39,492 nt of DNA from a virus. How positions within the stretch are numbered: position 1 is the first letter of the stretch; each line of letters starts with the position of its first letter. The notes below the pieces were generated by a model. It was not told the DNA's origin. It was given only the letters and a program-made list of their open reading frames with translations, and did no database searches. The stretch is from positions 1 through 39,492 of the IMG/VR virus record IMGVR_UViG_3300045988_127307; one strand, written 5' to 3'. Shown here piece after piece: positions 115-39,492 of the stretch. The position numbers and the translations under genes were made by a program.

Positions 115-598
115 GCAAAAGAAGTTTGTAGAAGAATACTTAATAGACCTTAATGCCACTCAAGCGGCTATTAGGGCTGGATATAGCACGGAATCAGCAA
201 AAGAAATTGGTTGTGAAAACTTAACGAAACCTAACGTAAAAGCTGAAATAGACAAAGCTATAGCGGAAAGAAGTCGAAGGACAGGTATTAATCAAGATAG
301 AGTTTTAAGGGAGTTAGCAAAGATAGCATTTGTTAATCCAGGAGATGTAATAAATTTAAATCAAGCTACTGTAAAATCAGATGCAAAAGAAGAAGATTTA
401 GCAGCTATAGCAAGTGTAAAAATAAAAAACATACCAACAGAAGATGGAGAAATAACAGAAAGGGAAATAAAACTATGCGACAAGCTAAAAGCATTGGATT
501 TACTCGGTAAACATCTAGGAATATATGACAAGAAAGATGCTGAGGATAAAAACCTAACAATAACAATCAATAAGGCAAGTGAAAAAAATGGAAATTAA
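95..598 (+). CDS. terS: terminase small subunit
   Basis: Track ORF 86-598. ATG 95 lies 8 nt after SD AAGGAG (81-86). The N-terminal HTH-like segment ([25 protein letters not shown]) is typical of the Terminase_2/P27 small-subunit family. It sits directly upstream of terL. Confidence 0.8.
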
Positions 599-1565
599 CA
601 TAACTTGCAATGATCACTTTGAAGATTTTGTTTTAGATTGGAACTATAAATTTTATTTTCTTGTTGGTGGTTATGGCAGCTCTAAAAGTTATCATGTGGT
701 CCAAAAGCTGCATCTAAAATTATTACAAGAAAAGAGATTAGCATTAGTTGTAAGGGAAGTATATGACACTATACGAGATAGCTGCTTTTCACTTTTACAA
801 GATGTAGCAGTAGATATGGGGATATATGATATGCTTAAATTTAAGACATCGCCAATGCAAGTAACATATCCTAATGGGAGCAAGATAATTTTTAAAGGTA
901 TGGATAAACCAGCTAAATTAAAATCTATCAATGGTGTATCTATTATATGGGTTGAAGAATGTTCCGAGGTTAAATATGAGGGCTTTAAAGAACTTTTAGG
1001 GCGTTTAAGACATCCTACACTCAGTAATCACATTATACTTAGCGAAAACCCTATAGAAAAGGCCAACTGGACTTATAAGCATTTTTTTATTGATGAAGAA
1101 AATAATAAGAAAATACTTGATGATGAAAAACTTTATATTGAAAGAATTATCAAGACAAATAATACATACTATCATCATTCCATTTGTGATGACAATTATT
1201 TTCTACCTCAGGACTATATAAAAGAGCTTGATAACATGAAAGAATACGACCCAGATTTATATAGAGTAGCTAGACAAGGTAGATTTGGTATAAATGGTAC
1301 CAAAGTATTACCGCAATTTGAAATGATGGACCACGATTTAGTTATGGCCAAAGTAGGTTCTATCCCTTCTAGATTTTATAGAGTTGGCATGGACTTTGGA
1401 TTTGAAACTTCATACAATGCATTAGTTAGAATTGCTATAGATGATGTGAATAAAGATTTGTATATTTACTGGGAATATTATAAAAATCATATGACAGATG
1501 ATAAGACTGCTAAAGAAATAGATGAATTTAGAGTAAATAAAGAGTTAATAAGAGCAGATAGTGCT
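579..1565 (+). CDS. terL: terminase large subunit, exon 1 (ATPase domain and part of the nuclease domain)
   Basis: Walker A-like GGYGSSKS and Walker B-like IIWVEE motifs. The ORF stops right after the conserved ...IRADSA, at TAA 1566-1568. The rest of the domain resumes at 2462. Confidence 0.85.
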
Positions 1566-2461
1566 TAATGGTTAGGCACTTAACCTGGTTAATTGCTGGA
1601 AACCCCTAAAGCTTTAGATACCAAAGAGTAAAAATTCTAAAGATGCTACAATGGGCAATCAGCAGCAATATTATAATTATTTAATGTTTTATGCAACGAA
1701 ACTATCCGAAATGTGTTATAATTATATTAAGGAGAGTGGTTGATATGAAACAAATAAATAAAATTAAAGGATATGAAAATATAAGAGATGTATATTACAT
1801 AACAGAAAATGGAAAAGTATTTAGCTATGCAAGTAACAATTTAAAAAGAAAAGATACTTGTAAAGAAATAAAACAATACAAGAAAACTGGAGGGTATTTA
1901 AATGTAGCACTAGTAACAAATGAGCAAAAAGTAAAATATGTAAGAGTTCATAGACTAGTAGCTTTAGCTTTTATACCTAATCCAGATAATAAAGAATATG
2001 TAAATCACATAGATGAAAATAGACAAAATAATAATGTATCAAATTTAGAATGGGTAACACCTAAAGAGAATAATTTACACTCATTAACTAAAAAAACTTA
2101 TGTATATGATTTAGAAGGTAATTTAGTTAAAATTTATAATTATACACACGAATGTAAAGTTGATGGGTTTAATCAAGGGCATGTATGTGCATGTGCTAGA
2201 GGTGAAGAAAGAACTCATAAAAAACATATATTTTCATATACACCTTTAACAAAAGATGATGTTGTTCAACGACTAGCGAAATCATTTTATCTTAAATAGA
2301 TAGAATAAGAAAGTAGGGTACACTCAAGTGAGTGGAAAAGCCAGGCAATAATTAAGACCGAGAGGTCTTTTTTATTGAAGATATAGTCTAGACTTATGTG
2401 AGAGCATAAGAAGTTCATAAGAGAACTGCATAAGATTAACGACCTTATGTGAATGAAATAG
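1566..2461 (+). mobile_element. group I intron (896 nt) carrying an HNH homing endonuclease ORF
   Basis: The 5' exon ends in U1565 and the intron ends in G2461. P1: AGTGCT (1560-1565) pairs with GGCACT (1575-1580), including a U1565-G1575 wobble. P10: GGTT (1570-1573) pairs with AACC (2463-2466). Hairpins lie in the 3' part (AGACC-gaga-GGTCT, CTTATG-tgagag-CATAAG). Joining 1565 to 2462 restores ...[17 protein letters not shown]... Confidence 0.75.
1745..2299 (+). CDS. intron-encoded HNH homing endonuclease (NUMOD4-like N-terminus plus HNH_3)
   Basis: ATG 1745 follows SD AGGAGAG. Motifs: IKGYENIRDVYYITENGKVFSY and NHIDENRQNNNVSNLEWVTPKEN. An extended -10 TGTTATAAT lies at 1714-1722. Confidence 0.8.
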   Translation: MKQINKIKGYENIRDVYYITENGKVFSYASNNLKRKDTCKEIKQYKKTGGYLNVALVTNEQKVKYVRVHRLVALAFIPNPDNKEYVNHIDENRQNNNVSNLEWVTPKENNLHSLTKKTYVYDLEGNLVKIYNYTHECKVDGFNQGHVCACARGEERTHKKHIFSYTPLTKDDVVQRLAKSFYLK

Positions 2462-2758
2462 GAACCCAAGACAATTAGATTTTATCAGCAAGAAGGTTTT
2501 AAAATGATAGGGGCTAAAAAATATCAAGGCTCTAGGCTTCAAAATACTAAAAAAGTAAAAAGATTTAAGCATATATATTGCTCAACTAAATGTGTTAATG
2601 TAAAAAAAGAATTGAAGGATCTAACATATAAGCAAAATGAAAAAGGTGAGAATATATATGATGAATTTAATATAGACCCTCATACTTTGAGTGCTATTTG
2701 GTATGCATTAGATGGTTATGAGGTTGCAGATTATAAAAGACATTATCACAGTAGATAG
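2462..2758 (+). CDS. terL: terminase large subunit, exon 2 (C-terminal nuclease motifs)
   Basis: The frame is open from 2462 (stop TAG at 2459-2461). It encodes [24 protein letters not shown]...[13 protein letters not shown], matching the family pattern ADSAEPKSI...KKG.GS...H..DA.RYAL. Confidence 0.8.
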
Positions 2759-2773
2759 AAAGGAGGTTACAAG

Positions 2774-4198
2774 ATGTTTAATAGTTATCAAGAGTTTGTT
2801 ACTGCTGAACTTACTGGATTGTATGGCTCGGCAGTATTACAAGAAATGAACGATATACTAAGACTGTATGACATATACGAAGGTCGAGAAAACTTTATAG
2901 ACAAGTCAGAAGAAAAAGATTATACACAGACAGAAAAAAGAACAAATCTGATTAAGAAACTTATAAAAGAAGAATCTAGATTTTTATTCGGCAAGACTCC
3001 AGAGCTATATGTTCAATCTAAAAACGATACAGATACTGACAAGGATAAAGCTGAACAAATAAATCTTTATTTAGATAAGATATTAAAAGATAATCTATTC
3101 TCAGAGAAGCTTGTAAAAGGTGCTAGAGACTGCTTTATCGGTAAAAGAGCTGCTATTAAATTATATGCTAACCAAGATACAAAAGAGATTAGGATAATGT
3201 TTTTACCTAGCTTGGAATTTATCTACGAGAGTGACGAAGAAAATCCTAACGAACTTAAAAAGATAATATTCTTCTATCAGACAAATAAGGAAGTTGAAAA
3301 AGATAAGCAACGTATTTGGAAGCAAAAGTATGAAATGATAGATGGAAGATGTATATTAAATGAAGGCATCTACAATGGTAATGGGATATTAATAGAGCCT
3401 ATAAATGTAGATGTAGACTTGCAATTAAGTGGTATTCCTTGCTATGTCATTATTAATGACGGATTAAGCGGCGACCCATTTGGCGAAAGTGACGTAAAAG
3501 AGCTTCTAGATAATCAGATTCAATACAATAGACTATCAAGTGAAGATGTTGACACTCTTAGAAAAGGTATGGATAGGATTATTTATGGTATCGACATAGA
3601 CCCAGAAGCATCTGAAAAATTTAAACTAAAGCCTGGAGCATTTTGGGACGTACCAACAGACCCTACAGCAGAAGGGAAACAAGCTACACTAGATACAATA
3701 CCGACAGATTTTAATTATGGAGACAAGATAGAAAATTCTCTAAAACGTATTAAGTCAGATATGTACGAGATGCTAAATATACCAATGCTATCAAATGACG
3801 AGCTAAAAGGCATGATGACATCAGGCAAAACTATGAAAGCACTGTATTGGCAACTTATTACTAGATGTGAAGAGAAGATGATGGCATGGCGACCAGCTTT
3901 AGAGTGGTTAATAAGAGCAATACTTGAAATTACAGAAGTATATCAAATAGAAAAATTACCGCAACTTGATTATACTGTTACAGTAGAAAATAACTATCCT
4001 TTACAGGAAGATGAAGACGAAGAAAAGACATTAGACTTGCAACAAGTAAATGCACAGGCTATGTCTAGAAAAACATTCATCAAGAAATGGCAAGGTGTTA
4101 CAGATGATGTGGCCGATGCTGAAATAAAACAAATAGCATTAGAAAGAGAAATGCTAGAGGAGAGTTATGTATCTGGAATGAGTGATTCAGTTGAATAA
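2774..4198 (+). CDS. portal protein (SPP1 gp6-like)
   Basis: 474 aa, immediately after terL, with an acidic C-terminus. SD AAGGAGG lies upstream. Confidence 0.8.
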   Translation: MFNSYQEFVTAELTGLYGSAVLQEMNDILRLYDIYEGRENFIDKSEEKDYTQTEKRTNLIKKLIKEESRFLFGKTPELYVQSKNDTDTDKDKAEQINLYLDKILKDNLFSEKLVKGARDCFIGKRAAIKLYANQDTKEIRIMFLPSLEFIYESDEENPNELKKIIFFYQTNKEVEKDKQRIWKQKYEMIDGRCILNEGIYNGNGILIEPINVDVDLQLSGIPCYVIINDGLSGDPFGESDVKELLDNQIQYNRLSSEDVDTLRKGMDRIIYGIDIDPEASEKFKLKPGAFWDVPTDPTAEGKQATLDTIPTDFNYGDKIENSLKRIKSDMYEMLNIPMLSNDELKGMMTSGKTMKALYWQLITRCEEKMMAWRPALEWLIRAILEITEVYQIEKLPQLDYTVTVENNYPLQEDEDEEKTLDLQQVNAQAMSRKTFIKKWQGVTDDVADAEIKQIALEREMLEESYVSGMSDSVE

Positions 4199-5087
4199 TT
4201 TTTTTAAACAAAAGAATAAAACTGAAAAAGAGATGACTAGAGAAATAAAAAAAGCATATAAGAGAGTAGCAAATAATCTAATTAAAAGATTGGCTCTAGT
4301 TAATCCAGATACTATGACATATGACTATTTAAGACAAACTGCTAAGTATCTAGAAAAAGAATATAAGAAACTAAATAAAAGACTTAATAAAGATATAGAA
4401 AAGGCTATAGCAAACACCGTAGAAGGCTATACACAAAGCCAAGTAGAGTTTTACAGTGATTTATGTAAACCTCTTTCTAGTAGCTTTGAAGATATGTTTA
4501 TTAAAGTGAATAAGCAAGTTTTAGACAATGTTATTACAGGCAAAATGTATGGAGATAACATAAAACTTTCTGACAGACTTTGGAGCAATCACAACAAGAC
4601 TGTAAAAACAATAAACGATATACTTACAGATGGTTTTATTACTGGTAAAAACAGTAAAGATATAGCTAAAGACTTAGAGGTTTATTGTAATCCAGATTAT
4701 TTAAAGGAATACGAAAAGTTTACTATTCATCCTAAAAGTAAAAACAAGGTTGAATTTAATTCATATAGATTAGCAAATACCTATATAAATCATGCATACC
4801 AAGAAGCAACAAGGCAAAGTGCTAAGCATAATCCATATGTAGAAAAAGTTGAATGGCTAAGCGGAACAGACGATAATGTATGCGATTTATGTAAAGAACG
4901 AAACGGAAAGAGGTTTAAGGTCGAGGATATTCCACTCGACCATCCGTGACCATTAGGACGATGCACCTTATTACCAGTCATAGAGGAAAATTTAGAAGAT
5001 ATAGCAAAAGAATTAAAAGATTGGGCTTATGGATCTTCAAATCCTAAATTAGATAAATGGTTTGAAATGTGGAATGTTAAAAAATAA
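4182..5087 (+). CDS. Mu F / SPP1 gp7-like minor head (head morphogenesis) protein, interrupted by an in-frame TGA at 4947-4949
   Basis: The track ORF ends ...CDLCKERNGKRFKVEDIPLDHP at TGA. The same frame continues PLGRCTLLPV... for 45 codons to TAA 5085-5087. Together the two parts cover the family motif C..C...PP.HP.CRCT..P. Confidence 0.7.
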
Positions 5088-38313: not shown

Positions 38314-38772
38314 ATGGCTAGTAAAACAATAGAAAAAGATAAAATATTTTCAGATGCAGAAGGTAAGTTATATAATTATAATTCTATGAAAATAGAATTA
38401 AACAGTCTAAAAATAGATTTAGAATATTTAGAAATAGATTACAAGGGATGCAAAGCTATTAGCTATGCTGATGAAAGAACAGGACAAACAAATAACATAA
38501 GCAATACAGTTGAAAATGAAGTACTTGCAAAAGAGAGACAGATAATAGAAATAGAAAATAAGATACATAAAAAAGAGAGACAAATTAGAAAAATAGAAAA
38601 TGCACTAGAGCTGCTAAAAGAAGAAGAGAAAAGACTTGTTAGCTTTAGATATTTCTCTAATAGAAAAAAAGCACCAAGCTGGTTAGATGTAGGAGAAGAA
38701 ATAGGATATAGTGATAAAAAATGTAGAATTATGAGAAACGATATAATAAACAAAATAAAATCACTTATATGA
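38314..38772 (+). CDS. ArpU/RinA-like late gene transcriptional activator
   Basis: 152 aa with a central coiled coil and a C-terminal sigma region-4-like segment (EEEKRLVSFRYFSN...SWLDVGEEIGYSDKKCRIMRNDIINKI). It is the last gene before the packaging module. Confidence 0.7.
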   Translation: MASKTIEKDKIFSDAEGKLYNYNSMKIELNSLKIDLEYLEIDYKGCKAISYADERTGQTNNISNTVENEVLAKERQIIEIENKIHKKERQIRKIENALELLKEEEKRLVSFRYFSNRKKAPSWLDVGEEIGYSDKKCRIMRNDIINKIKSLI

Positions 38773-38839
38773 TTTCCGTAAAAGTTCCGTAAAGTTACCT
38801 CATAATTTCCGTAAAAGTTCCTTTTTTAGACGGAAAACT
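38773..38839. repeat. TTCCGTAAA(A)GTT repeats: three direct copies plus one inverted TTCCGT
   Basis: TTTCCGTAAAAGTTCC occurs at 38773-38788 and 38806-38821. GTTCCGTAAAGTTACC occurs at 38784-38799. An inverted AGACGGAAAAC occurs at 38829-38839. Confidence 0.9.
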
Positions 38840-39059
38840 ATAGTATATTTGTATTATAGGAAAATATAAAAGTTGTTTTCTTTACGAACTCTTATTGAAT
38901 GTCAGATAGCCTGGTAACCTATTTGACTAGTATAATTGCTACAGTTTTTTAAAACATTGGTTTTTTCTTGGCACAGACTTGTGTCCTCCTTAAGTATGAA
39001 TATATAATTAACAACTTAGTTATGACAGGAAATGGCTGGGGGTAAAACCTCAGCAACGT

Positions 39060-39115
39060 GCAAGTAATGGAAATCACTCCCCCATGTGATACAGGTTCGA
39101 ATCCTGTAGCTTGCT
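39060..39115 (+). other. tRNA-like minihelix (acceptor-like stem plus canonical T-arm); not a complete tRNA
   Basis: T-arm ACAGG-TTCGAAT-CCTGT at 39091-39107. GCAAGT (39060-39065) pairs with GCTTGC (39109-39114). Only one further hairpin lies between them (ATCAC-tcccccat-GTGAT). There is no D-arm, and the total length is about 55 nt. Confidence 0.35.
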
Positions 39116-39177
39116 AATTGTAATTACTATCATACAACAGCAGAAACAGATTTTAATCTCATACTCAATTTAAAAAA

Positions 39178-39200
39178 GAGCCCTTCATGGGCTCCTTTTG
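39178..39200 (+). terminator. intrinsic terminator 25 nt upstream of the first late-operon ORF
   Basis: GAGCCC-ttcat-GGGCTC followed by CTTTTGTTG, with A6 on the 5' side. Confidence 0.65.
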
Positions 39201-39225
39201 TTGTGCAAAGAAAGAGTTGATCTAA

Positions 39226-39492
39226 ATGAGTAGAAAAATATTTCAAAGAAAAGAGTATTCAATTTATAGATGTAGTGACGGATTTGTTGTACATAATACA
39301 AACAAGAAATTTGAAAACGGACATACACATGTAAATAATTTTTATAAAGCTAAGATACTGGTTATTATGGCTATAAAAAGAGAGATAGACGATAAGCTAA
39401 GTAAAAGAGATATAGAAAGTCTTATTAGATTAACGAATGATAATAGATATAGAAATAAATTATTAGAATTAGAAAGGAGTGGTATTAATGGC
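39226..39492 (+). CDS. N-terminal part of the 93-aa hypothetical protein that continues at bases 1-114
   Basis: The frame is open from ATG 39226 to the window end. It encodes MSRKIFQRKEYSIYRCSDGFVVHNTNKKFENGHTHV... Confidence 0.5.
   Translation, partial: MSRKIFQRKEYSIYRCSDGFVVHNTNKKFENGHTHVNNFYKAKILVIMAIKREIDDKLSKRDIESLIRLTNDNRYRNKLLELERSGING
39394..39492. repeat. 99-bp terminal overlap identical to bases 1-99 (circular or permuted assembly)
   Basis: Compared base by base: AAGCTAAGTAAAAGAGATATAG...GGTATTAATGGC at both ends. Confidence 0.95.

What the first reader, a model, noticed from the sequence alone, without database searches (positions are those of the whole stretch)
38773..39225. A 450-bp structured non-coding leader with a tRNA-like minihelix and an intrinsic terminator lies between the late activator and the packaging operon
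No ORF with a ribosome site fills 38773-39225. The region contains the TTCCGT repeats, a consensus TATAAT (38931-38936) and several hairpins. Examples are GGCACA-gact-TGTGTC near 38970-38985, and GCTGGGG-gtaaaa-CCTCAGC at 39035-39054. It also contains a canonical tRNA T-arm (ACAGG-TTCGAAT-CCTGT, 39091-39107) closed by an acceptor-like stem (GCAAGT/GCTTGC). A good intrinsic terminator (39178-39200) sits only 25 nt before the first late ORF, at 39226. That leaves no room for a promoter between the terminator and the ORF. So late transcription would have to read through the terminator, which implies regulated antitermination. Alternatively, the region encodes a discrete RNA of about 260 nt. The T-arm/acceptor element is too short (about 55 nt, no D-arm, 8-nt middle loop) to be a normal tRNA. 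It could be a tRNA-mimic processing or CCA-adding signal, a fragment of a host tRNA gene (a secondary att site or old recombination scar), or part of a new RNA element. I cannot assign it to a known RNA family by eye.
Basis: partly seen in the sequence, partly recalled or inferred. Interest (0 to 1): 0.65.

Follow-up and report, generated by a model that had tools for sequence, protein, structure and literature searches.

The report
Phage late-gene leader RNA with tRNA mimic
The gap between this phage's late-gene activator and its packaging genes encodes a conserved, folded leader RNA that carries a stripped-down tRNA look-alike and ends in a terminator; this RNA family is not catalogued, and it also occurs in Clostridioides difficile phages.

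Summary
The region is non-coding, and about 70 related viral contigs share it. Seven helices are kept by compensatory changes: 96% of cells are paired, 18 of 44 pairs change on both sides, and no shuffle out of 500 does as well.

The upstream gene is a RinA-family late activator. The RNA probably starts near 38863, just after the activator's direct repeats, and not at the TATAAT at 38931, which lies inside the RNA. It ends about 335 nt later at an intrinsic terminator. All 11 leader types examined have such a terminator just before the first late gene.

The T-arm/acceptor element derives from a tRNA but cannot decode. One group of relatives has a real tRNA-Glu at the same place. Another has an anticodon-less mimic with a D arm and an encoded CCA. 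C. difficile phages have a bare minihelix.

ARAGORN and Rfam 15 recognise nothing here.

Most likely this is an attenuator and insulator leader of the late operon that must be read through. The tRNA mimic probably serves as a handle for tRNA-processing enzymes. The function is inferred, not shown.

The parts
38314..38772 (+). RinA-family late transcriptional activator gene (152 aa)
   Evidence: NCBIfam TIGR01636 phage_rinA scores 34.2 bits (cut-off 31.9), with weak sigma-70 region-4 matches. It also matches PHROG 36, a transcriptional regulator family. Pfam gives no hit.
38773..38836 (+). Activator-specific direct repeats (T/G)TTCCGTAAA at 38773, 38784 and 38806, a partial copy at 38817, and an inverted copy ACGGAAA at 38830-38836
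   Evidence: The repeats are clustered and spaced 11 or 22 nt apart. Relatives that carry a different activator gene have different repeats (GGGG-type) in front of the same downstream leader. Terrisporobacter phage TPDSL_ph2, whose RinA homologue is 52% identical, has the same TTCCGT repeats.
38841..38865 (+). Predicted late promoter: -10-like TAGTAT (38841-38846) and TATTAT (38852-38857), followed by AGGAAAAT. The inferred transcription start is about 38863 +/- 3.
   Evidence: The motif (TATAAT)-N-TAGTRT-N-GGAAA recurs at the same place, just after the repeats. I saw it in every leader type where I read this stretch (nine in all), including C. difficile phiC2 and S. aureus 80alpha. The start site itself is inferred.
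38875..38888 (+). Conserved pyrimidine-rich 5' motif UUUUCUUUACGAAC
   Evidence: It is nearly invariant in 37 homologues. Divergent leaders carry counterparts: AUUUCUUUUAACAAC, AUUUCUUUAAAG and AUUUCCCUCUCAAAAC. A resemblance to boxA is recalled from memory and was not tested.
38901..38927 (+). Hairpin P0: stem GUCAGAUAG/CUAUUUGAC with the conserved 9-nt loop CCUGGUAAC, which resembles a tRNA D loop
   Evidence: Five unrelated stem sequences carry the same loop NYUGGUAAM. All wobble pairs are G-U on the plus strand. The helix is 100% paired, and 5 of 9 pairs change on both sides. In phiC2-type phages the same loop sits 2 nt before the minihelix.
38931..38936 (+).
   Evidence: It directly follows P0. 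It is replaced or absent in the L071/L075, L085, L081 and L035 types.
38970..38989 (+). Hairpin P1 (GGCACA/UGUGUC) followed by the conserved anti-Shine-Dalgarno-like motif CCUCC (38985-38989)
   Evidence: The stem is replaced by AUGCAU/AUGCAU and by GGGGC/GCUCC in relatives, while YCCUCC is kept.
38990..39019 (+). Helix P2 (UUAAGU/ACUUAG); weaker support than the others
   Evidence: RNAalifold predicts it. It is 92% paired, with 2 of 6 pairs changed on both sides, and it is deleted in three relatives.
39035..39054 (+). Hairpin P3 (GCUGGGG/CCUCAGC) with loop GUAAAA, GUGAAA or GAAA, linked by AACGU to the tRNA-like element
   Evidence: It is 100% paired, and 3 of 7 pairs change on both sides. 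The same hairpin-AACGU-acceptor arrangement occurs in L254.
39060..39115 (+). tRNA-derived, anticodon-less element. Acceptor stem 39060-39065 / 39109-39114 with a conserved A-purine mismatch at 7:66. Connector AAUGGAAAU, a D-loop remnant. Variable arm 39073-39090 with a C-rich loop. T arm 39091-39107 with loop UUCGAAU. Discriminator U at 39115; no CCA.
   Evidence: The T stem covaries as ACAGG/CCUGU, GUAGG/CCUAC, GCAGG/CCUGC and GUAAG/CUUAC. The acceptor stem is 100% paired. Five different acceptor stems occur across leader types. Alignment with L254 (D arm plus CCA) and with the tRNA-Glu of L248 shows the same positions. It is not called a tRNA by ARAGORN or Rfam. It folds as expected when taken alone.
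39116..39177 (+). Variable, unstructured A-rich spacer with a C-rich stretch (CUCAUACUC)
   Evidence: Homology to several relatives stops right after the acceptor 3' end, so this is a mosaic junction. Other leader types also have a C-rich stretch before the terminator.
39178..39204 (+). Intrinsic terminator: GAGCCC-UUCAU-GGGCUC followed by CUUUUGUUGU
   Evidence: The pattern scan finds it, and its folding energy is -10.9 kcal/mol. Stem variants are GAACCC/GGGUUC and GGCCC/GGGCC, and remote phages have unrelated hairpins. In the 8 leader types where the start coordinate used was a start codon, a terminator-like hairpin lies 17-48 nt before the first late ORF.
39226..39492 (+). First late ORF (93 aa, PHROG 9079, function unknown). 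It continues across the 99-bp terminal overlap to window position 114. terS starts at 95.
   Evidence: The 99-bp terminal overlap and the joined translation are. TerS matches Terminase_2 and TerL matches Terminase_3.

Best explanation
The region is the transcribed 5' leader of the RinA-dependent late operon (packaging, head, tail and lysis genes).

Shown:
- It is a conserved, non-coding, plus-strand RNA with at least seven covarying helices.
- It lies between an activator-binding repeat array and a conserved intrinsic terminator, and that terminator sits 22-31 nt before the first late ORF.
- It belongs to a modular family of late-leader RNAs in phages of clostridia, including the C. difficile phiC2 / phiCD119 / phiCD27 / phiCD24-1 group.
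- The family's modules are a hairpin with a D-loop-like loop (NYUGGUAAM), C-rich single-stranded motifs, and a tRNA-derived element.
- In this phage the tRNA-derived element keeps the acceptor stem, the GG of the D loop and a canonical T arm. It has lost the D stem and a usable anticodon loop.

Inferred:
- RinA bound to the repeats activates a promoter at about 38841-38865.
- Most transcripts from that promoter, and any early transcripts that run through rinA, stop at the leader terminator. This yields an RNA of about 335 nt and insulates the late genes.
- Late genes are expressed only by polymerases that read through. Read-through could happen because RinA-loaded polymerase resists termination, as with lambda Q. 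It could happen because the leader RNA acts in cis. Or a strong promoter could simply leak past the terminator.
- The tRNA mimic does not decode. It most likely offers the tRNA 'top half' to RNase P, RNase Z and the CCA-adding enzyme. These would cut the leader at 39059/39060 and after 39115 and release a stable small RNA.
For: - Covariation: 96.3% of cells are paired, 18 of 44 pairs change on both sides, no shuffle out of 500 matches this, and slid controls reach only 28-39%. RNAalifold agrees.
- Plus-strand G-U pairs occur in P0, P3 and the acceptor stem.
- The activator is RinA family. The repeats change together with the activator type, while the leader stays the same.
- The same order of parts occurs in all 11 leader types compared: repeats, then a -10-like motif, then a leader, then a terminator, then the first late gene. 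These include Terrisporobacter TPDSL_ph2, C. difficile phiCD24-1 and S. aureus 80alpha.
- No sigma-70-like promoter fits between the terminator and the ORF.
- Published work on 80alpha and phi11 shows that a terminator lies between rinA and terS. It also shows that RinA needs DNA more than 155 bp upstream of the mapped 5' end, a distance the authors call unexplained (PMC3152322; PMC3753634).
- The late operon contains further plus-strand terminator-like sites between genes, at 2354, 5901, 7689 and 23932.
- Large cis-acting antiterminator RNAs are known in Gram-positive mobile elements: Tn916 canT (452 nt), pLS20 conAn2 and EAR (PMC11658703).
- tRNA origin: a real tRNA-Glu occupies the same leader position in L248-L251. 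L254-L261 carry a mimic with a D arm, a 3-nt 'anticodon' loop and an encoded CCA. The elements align position by position.
- Only the acceptor stem, the GG and the T arm are conserved across types. By established knowledge, these are the parts that RNase P, RNase Z and the CCA-adding enzyme recognise.
- Homology breaks exactly at the acceptor 3' end.
Against: - No transcript ends, read-through or processing were measured, so every functional step is inferred.
- In 80alpha and phi11 the published RinA-dependent 5' end lies downstream of the terminator, and the authors argued it is a true start. If that holds here, the leader is not the late 5' leader.
- The tRNA-like element and P0 are missing from some leaders that still have the terminator: TPDSL_ph2 and 80alpha have neither, and the L035 type lacks the tRNA-like element. 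These modules are therefore not needed for read-through as such.
- Cleavage at the tRNA mimic would detach the upstream RNA from the polymerase. That argues against a tethered, put- or nut-like role for P0.
- The window element has no encoded CCA, and its 7:66 position is a purine-purine mismatch. Whether RNase P or RNase Z would accept it is unknown.
Confidence: 0.5

Rival explanations
1. It is a trans-acting late small RNA. The terminated RNA of about 335 nt, or the excised tRNA mimic, is the functional product. It could act as a decoy or sponge for host factors that recognise the tRNA acceptor/T-arm half, for example toxins or defence nucleases that target tRNA ends. It could also act as a C-rich antisense RNA that binds Shine-Dalgarno sequences.
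For: - The terminator defines a discrete RNA.
- Only the tRNA top half is conserved, while the 'anticodon' arm varies freely.
- L254-type relatives encode CCA, as stable tRNAs do.
- The RNA has C-rich unpaired motifs: CCUCC at 38985-38989, the loop CUCCCCCA, and C-rich stretches before the terminator.
- Conservation is strongest in the tRNA-like core.
Against: - No target complementary to the C-rich loop exists in the phage genome, and host targets could not be searched.
- The C-rich loop is not conserved in L081, L096 or phiC2.
- The position, always exactly between the activator and the first late gene, fits a cis role better.
- No paper found describes such a decoy.
Confidence: 0.17
2. It is the 3' untranslated region and terminator of the early/middle transcript that ends with rinA. 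The late promoter would lie elsewhere, either overlapping or following the terminator as published for 80alpha, and would be activated by RinA from a distance. The folded RNA would then be a by-product or a 3'-UTR stabiliser.
For: - There is no terminator between the rinA stop codon and the leader, so early transcripts must run into the leader.
- Published 5' RACE in 80alpha, phi11 and phi55 places the late start 23-28 nt before terS, which is after the terminator.
Against: - The 31 nt after the terminator stem contain no -10-like box.
- A promoter-like motif is conserved right after the repeats in all leader types, including 80alpha.
- The repeats are spaced in helical phase next to that motif, as at classical activator-dependent promoters.
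- In phage phiFL2A the mapped start is 118 nt upstream of terS.
Confidence: 0.13
3. It is a decaying phage tRNA gene, in other words a pseudogene, with no present function. The rest of the leader would be ordinary spacer.
For: - Relatives show a series from a real tRNA-Glu, to an anticodon-less mimic, to a minihelix, to nothing.
- The element is dispensable in some close relatives.
Against: - Both-sided compensatory changes keep the T, acceptor and variable-arm stems paired.
- GCAAGTAATGGAAATC, AGGTTCGAATCCT and CTTGCTA are invariant across 32 sequences, while the flanks vary.
- An independent lineage, the C. difficile phages, keeps the minihelix with its own compensatory changes.
Confidence: 0.08
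4. It is a DNA-level site: a pac or cos packaging signal, or a secondary attachment site derived from a host tRNA gene.
For: - The region lies directly upstream of terS, where pac sites often lie.
- The tRNA 3' halves are common att cores (established knowledge).
Against: - The helices tolerate G-T but not A-C, which is strand-specific and so points to selection at the RNA level.
- Both acceptor strands are present.
- The integrase is 12 kb away.
- None of the 38 genome loci returned by the pattern scan matches the core of the element.
Confidence: 0.03

Closest known systems
RinA/Ltr late-gene control region of Staphylococcus aureus phages 80alpha and phi11 (Ferrer et al. 2011, PMC3152322; Quiles-Puchalt et al. 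2013, PMC3753634)
   Same: Both have a RinA-family activator directly upstream, direct repeats right after its stop codon, a -10-like motif (TATTAT-GATAGTGTAGG in 80alpha), an intrinsic terminator between the activator gene and terS, and a single late operon.
   Different: The 80alpha leader is only about 100 nt and has no P0 hairpin and no tRNA-like element. The published late 5' end there lies after the terminator. No structured RNA has been described for that region.
Lambda PR' - 6S RNA - tR' unit with Q antitermination
   Same: In both, the late regulator gene sits immediately upstream. A promoter is followed by a short non-coding transcript that ends at an intrinsic terminator in front of a long late operon. 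That operon can be expressed only by read-through (established knowledge; layout).
   Different: The regulator here is RinA family, not Q; Pfam gives no Q-family hit. The leader here is longer, strongly structured, conserved and modular. A Q-binding element and a sigma-dependent pause were not tested.
Cis-acting processive antiterminator RNAs: HK022 put, B. subtilis EAR, pLS20 conAn2, Tn916 canT
   Same: Each is a structured RNA of 70-450 nt at the start of a long operon of a mobile element or phage, upstream of terminators that must be bypassed (PMC11658703).
   Different: No sequence or structure similarity was detected: Rfam gives no hit and the plasmid collection gives no match. Leaders in this family that lack the structured modules still have the terminator. 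A tRNA-like cleavage handle would cut the tether.
tRNA-like processing and mimicry elements: the tRNA-like domain of tmRNA, mascRNA of MALAT1, the tRNA-like parts of murine gammaherpesvirus 68 TMER RNAs, bacterial YrlA
   Same: All have an acceptor stem plus T arm with a canonical T loop, a D region reduced to a GG-containing loop, no decoding anticodon, and (in L254-type relatives) a CCA end. In the known cases RNase P, RNase Z and the CCA-adding enzyme recognise this shape (from memory; anatomy).
   Different: This element sits in a phage late-operon leader. It is not detected as tmRNA or as any Rfam family, at Rfam's own thresholds or at relaxed ones. It has a conserved A-purine mismatch at 7:66 and a U-AAU tail instead of CCA.
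Phage-encoded tRNA genes
   Same: Relatives L248-L251 carry a tRNA-Glu(UUC) with CCA, called by ARAGORN, at the homologous leader position.
   Different: The window element lacks the D stem and has an 8-nt C-rich loop. It fails ARAGORN even in its permissive mode, and it scores below the Rfam tRNA threshold.

Membership tests
Canonical tRNA | Detected by tRNA finders or a covariance model | tested here: not met
   ARAGORN finds 0 genes in the window. Its mitochondrial, D-armless mode gives no sensible call. Rfam tRNA gives no hit with E up to 10; the only hit is tRNA-Sec at 16 bits against a threshold of 47.
Canonical tRNA | D arm (4-bp stem plus loop with GG) | tested here: not met
   Only the unpaired connector AAUGGAAAU lies between the acceptor stem and the next stem. 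The D stem is present in relatives L254 and L248.
Canonical tRNA | Anticodon arm with a 5-bp stem and a 7-nt loop with U33 | tested here: not met
   The window has a 5-bp stem with the 8-nt loop UCCCCCAU. Variants have 4 bp with CCCCCAA (C at position 33), 3-nt loops, or long arms.
Canonical tRNA | T arm: 5-bp stem and 7-nt loop UUCRANY | tested here: met
   ACAGG-UUCGAAU-CCUGU. The helix is 99.5% paired, and 3 of 5 pairs change on both sides.
Canonical tRNA | 7-bp acceptor stem, discriminator and 3' CCA | tested here: not met
   There are 6 bp plus a conserved A-purine mismatch at 7:66, discriminator U, then AAU. No CCA is encoded. Addition of CCA after transcription cannot be tested here.
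tmRNA | tRNA-like ends enclosing a tag reading frame; detected by ARAGORN | tested here: not met
   ARAGORN reports no tmRNA. The two acceptor strands are only 50 nt apart.
Intrinsic (factor-independent) terminator | G+C-rich stem-loop directly followed by a U tract | tested here: met
   The stem has 6 bp (5 of them G-C), the loop has 5 nt, and the tail is CUUUUGUUGU. The folding energy is -10.9 kcal/mol. The stem covaries across relatives.
Intrinsic (factor-independent) terminator | Actually stops RNA polymerase | not testable with these tools
   This needs Term-seq, in vitro transcription or reporter assays.
RinA/Ltr late-activator control region | Activator protein belongs to the RinA family | tested here: met
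   TIGR01636 scores 34.2 bits against a cut-off of 31.9.
RinA/Ltr late-activator control region | Direct repeats just after the activator gene, and a terminator between that gene and the first late gene | tested here: met
   Repeats. Terminator. 80alpha has the same layout, as described in PMC3753634.
RinA/Ltr late-activator control region | Late transcription depends on the activator binding these repeats | not testable with these tools
   The only support is correlation: the repeats change together with the activator type.
Lambda Q-type late antitermination | Q-family antiterminator protein | tested here: not met
   Pfam shows no Q-family domain in the upstream protein. It is RinA family.
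Lambda Q-type late antitermination | Promoter-proximal loading site and a sigma-dependent pause | not tested
   Tandem -10-like hexamers occur at 38841-38857 and in relatives. This is a lead only.
Any curated RNA family (Rfam 15), including T-box, riboswitches, GOLLD/ROOL, YrlA and group I/II introns if held there | Score at or above the family's gathering threshold | tested here: not met
   There are 0 hits in the window and 0 in 12 related loci. Relaxed searches of the window, L096 and phiC2 leaders give only sub-threshold chance matches.

The most novel reading that the evidence does not exclude
The tRNA-derived, anticodon-less element, made in large amounts from the late promoter, is released by tRNA-processing enzymes and acts in trans. 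It would serve as a decoy for host immunity or toxin proteins that attack the acceptor/CCA end or the elbow of tRNAs, at the stage of infection when capsid and terminase proteins appear. The late leader would then be an RNA-based counter-defence locus shared by gut clostridial phages and C. difficile phages.
Probability: 0.1. Interest if true: 0.85.

Novelty: new variant of a known kind. Interest (0 to 1): 0.62.

Why it matters
- It defines an uncatalogued family of structured RNAs that sits at the main developmental switch (early to late) of many temperate phages of clostridia. These include at least 27 GenBank records of C. difficile phages, where the stretch is almost always unannotated, so it can be tested in a cultivable, medically relevant system.
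- A terminator lies between the RinA-type repeats and the first late gene in all 11 leader types, from S. aureus 80alpha to gut clostridial phages. Together with a conserved promoter-like motif next to the repeats, this suggests a testable answer to a puzzle left open in 2011-2013. The puzzle is why RinA needs DNA more than 155 bp upstream of the mapped late 5' end. The answer would be that late expression works by read-through of a leader terminator.
- The series from real tRNA, to an anticodon-less mimic with CCA, to a D-armless minihelix, to nothing shows a phage tRNA gene being converted into a non-decoding RNA module. That makes the role of the tRNA 'top half' outside translation directly testable.

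Tried and rejected
- Host tRNA fragment or att site. A pattern scan of one genome per species returned only unrelated tRNAs, and none matches the core of the element. The integrase is 12 kb away. Rejected.
- Known RNA families. Rfam searches at gathering thresholds and at relaxed E-values, on the window, 12 relatives, L096 and phiC2, found nothing.
- D-armless tRNA. ARAGORN in mitochondrial mode misreads the T loop as an anticodon, so it is not informative.
- Similar DNA elsewhere. The window's intergenic region (38773-39225) has no blastn match in GenBank phages, and the leader (38872-39210) has none in plasmids. The family link to C. difficile phages was found only through the activator protein and by reading the sequences.
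- Antisense targets. The phage genome has no match of at least 9 nt to the complement of the C-rich loop.
- Pseudoknot between the P0 loop (CCUGGUAAC) and GUUAUGACAGG (39020-39030). The pairing is possible in the window but is not kept in L072, L078 or L081 when read by eye. Dropped.
- Long-range pairing of UUGCUACAG (38937-38945) with the sequence after the terminator. RNAalifold proposes it, but the register differs between leader types. Unproven.
- An all-against-all search for covarying columns was swamped by phylogenetic signal from a few outgroups.
- A profile of five diverse activators was too divergent for the locus finder; a three-sequence profile worked.
- Literature. Searches for a prior description of such an element found none. 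The supplements of the large viral structured-RNA survey (PMC10690425) are not held, so I cannot exclude that the motif is among its 10,006 unnamed candidates.
Full report
**Context.** The window is a complete, circularly closed phage genome. Its first and last 99 bases are identical. The ORF that starts at 39226 continues into the window start and encodes a 93-aa protein (PHROG 9079, function unknown). It is followed by terS (Terminase_2) and terL (Terminase_3). The gene that ends at 38772 is a RinA-family late activator. It scores 34.2 bits on TIGR01636 against a cut-off of 31.9, and it has weak sigma-70 region-4 matches and a PHROG 36 match. The finding therefore lies exactly at the early-to-late junction. 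The closest cultured relatives of the activator are phages of Terrisporobacter, C. difficile, C. tetani and C. perfringens.

Every feature is at the stated coordinates. ARAGORN finds no tRNA or tmRNA. Rfam 15 finds nothing at its gathering thresholds in the whole window and only chance-level matches when relaxed. The gap holds no conserved ORF, and homologues differ by many 1-2-nt indels.

**Conservation and covariation.** About 70 IMG/VR contigs carry the same intergenic region at 77-98% identity, in 40 distinct versions.
- I aligned 37 distinct homologues of 38872-39124 without any structure input (A2). The seven helices I named are 96.3% paired.
- 18 of 44 pairs have changes on both sides. 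No shuffle out of 500 reaches these values, and sliding the 3' partners by 1-3 columns drops pairing to 28-39%.
- P0, P3 and the acceptor stem are 100% paired, and the T stem is 99.5% paired.
- The T stem occurs as ACAGG/CCUGU, GUAGG/CCUAC, GCAGG/CCUGC and GUAAG/CUUAC.
- All wobble pairs are G-U on the plus strand. For example, 34 of 37 sequences have a G-U in P0. On the minus strand these would be A-C mismatches, so selection acts on a plus-strand RNA and not on DNA.
- Taken alone, the 57-nt element folds into the acceptor / variable-arm / T-arm three-way junction as its minimum-energy structure (z = -3.1).

**Where the RNA starts.** The hairpin P0 (38901-38927) lies upstream of the TATAAT at 38931. 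Across relatives it has five unrelated stem sequences and an invariant loop NYUGGUAAM. The TATAAT itself is replaced or missing in several relatives. So that box is inside the RNA.

Just after the activator-specific repeats there is a shared motif of the form (TATAAT)-N-TAGTRT-N-GGAAA. It occurs in every leader type where I read this stretch (nine in all), including C. difficile phiC2 and S. aureus 80alpha. In the window it lies at 38841-38865. I infer a start near 38863 and an RNA of about 335 nt. When the activator gene is of another type, the repeats change with it (GGGG-type repeats) while the leader downstream stays the same. Terrisporobacter phage TPDSL_ph2, whose RinA homologue is 52% identical, has the same TTCCGT repeats. 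This fits the repeats being the activator's binding sites, as proposed for the Ltr family.

**The terminator is the universal part.** In all 11 leader types compared, a terminator-like hairpin (-10 to -16 kcal/mol) with a U tract lies just upstream of the first late ORF. The measured distance is 17-48 nt in the 8 types where the coordinate I used was a start codon. The types are the window, L085, L081, L035, L039, L096, L254, L248, phiCD24-1, TPDSL_ph2 and 80alpha. The stems differ in sequence (GAGCCC/GGGCUC, GAACCC/GGGUUC, GGCCC/GGGCC, and unrelated ones). In the window, the 31 nt between stem and ATG contain no -10-like box.

For 80alpha and phi11, the literature reports a terminator between rinA and terS. 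It also reports that RinA needs DNA more than 155 bp upstream of the mapped 5' end, which the authors could not explain (PMC3152322; PMC3753634). The 80alpha sequence shows the same order of parts: repeats, -10-like motif, short leader, terminator, terS. The simplest reading of the shared layout is that late transcription starts next to the repeats and has to read through the leader terminator. That terminator also stops early transcripts that run through rinA. This is an inference. The published 5' end in 80alpha lies after the terminator, and that is the main evidence against it. The window's late operon also has further plus-strand terminator-like sites between genes. Large cis-acting antiterminator RNAs are known in Gram-positive mobile elements.

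**What the tRNA-like element is.** It is a tRNA derivative that has lost decoding.
- In L248-L251, ARAGORN calls a tRNA-Glu(UUC) with CCA at the homologous place in the leader.
- L254-L261 have acceptor GAGAAUA/AAUUCUC, a proper D arm (GUUU-AAUGGUA-AAAU), a hairpin with a 3-nt loop in place of the anticodon arm, a T arm, discriminator A and CCA.
- The window type has lost the D stem. The connector AAUGGAAAU aligns with the D loop AAUGGUAAAAU. Its variable arm is C-rich, and it ends in U-AAU.
- C. difficile phages have a bare minihelix of acceptor, YUGG connector and T arm. It is preceded, 2 nt upstream, by a hairpin with the same CUUGGUAAC loop as P0.
- Across all types, the conserved parts are the acceptor stem (five different sequences), an A-purine mismatch at 7:66, the GG, and the T arm.
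- One close group of relatives with the same activator (L035-L040) has P0, CCUCC and the terminator but no tRNA-like element. TPDSL_ph2 and 80alpha have neither P0 nor the tRNA-like element. So the element is an optional module.
- Homology with several relatives breaks exactly after the acceptor 3' end.

**How it most likely works.** The leader as a read-through checkpoint is the best-supported reading. The parts of the tRNA that survive are those recognised by RNase P, RNase Z and the CCA-adding enzyme (established knowledge). I therefore favour a role as a processing handle that cuts the leader and yields a stable small RNA. This is inferred from anatomy only. A trans-acting decoy role cannot be excluded and would be the most novel outcome. 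I found no target in the phage genome for the C-rich loop.

**Comparison with what is known.** The layout works like lambda PR'-6S-tR' with Q, but the regulator is RinA family and no Q domain is present. It matches the RinA/Ltr control regions in all sequence-level features tested. It is not a member of the tRNA or tmRNA families or of any Rfam family. The phiC2-type leader is present in 27 C. difficile phage records. In all but a few it is unannotated, and no Rfam family matches the phiC2 copy. I found no paper that describes the element. I could not check the candidate lists of the viral structured-RNA survey.

**Verdict.** It is a new variant of a known kind: a phage late-gene leader with a terminator, carrying tRNA-derived modules. 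Its function is inferred, and it can be tested in C. difficile phages.

Noticed in passing
window 579-2758: terL is split. Positions 579-1568 encode Terminase_3 plus the first 60 positions of Terminase_3C. Positions 2504-2758 encode Terminase_3C positions 76-154. An HNH_3 endonuclease ORF (1691-2299) and a terminator-like hairpin (2354-2369) lie between them. This looks like an intron or homing-endonuclease insertion, yet Rfam reports no group I or II intron.
   Followed up: partly
L248 2156-2229 (also L249-L251): ARAGORN calls a tRNA-Glu(UUC) with encoded CCA inside the late leader of a prophage with a related activator (44% identity). It sits at the position of the window's tRNA-like element.
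   Followed up: partly
L254 2140-2208 (also L255-L257, L259, L261): An anticodon-less tRNA mimic with a full D arm, a 3-nt loop in place of the anticodon loop, a T arm, discriminator A and an encoded CCA. ARAGORN does not call it.
   Followed up: partly
L207 (phiC2) 3778-4215, and 26 other C. difficile phage records: A homologous late leader: TTCCCCAG repeats, GATAATAGTAT, two tRNA-like elements, a CUUGGUAAC hairpin, a C-rich motif and a terminator. It is unannotated in nearly all records. In the RefSeq copy of CDKM15 (NC_048643.1) the feature under the match is labelled 'queuine tRNA-ribosyltransferase', which looks like an annotation artefact.
   Followed up: partly
L205 (S. aureus phage 80alpha) 1722-1907: The rinA-terS gap has TGGCAGT repeats, the motif TATTATGATAGTGTAGG, and a strong terminator (GGGTTGGCT...AGCCAATCC plus T6) 48 nt before terS. 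The published late 5' end lies 14 nt after that terminator's T run. This raises the question whether RinA acts through read-through.
   Followed up: partly
window 39170-39204: The leader terminator has an A run before it and a T run after it, so it would also work on the minus strand, where the T run is better (TTTTTTAAATT). Several weak Rfam matches were minus-strand terminator matches.
   Followed up: no
L096 2283-2880: A more distant phage has a 580-nt leader with repeated modules. They are a hairpin with loop ACGGUAAA, a tRNA-like element with a long variable arm, a second GGGUAA-loop hairpin, an internal terminator-like hairpin, a second minihelix, a UUCCCUC motif and a final terminator.
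   Followed up: no
window 2354, 5901, 7689, 23932 (+ strand): Terminator-like hairpins lie between genes inside the late operon, including one just after the major capsid gene.
   Followed up: no
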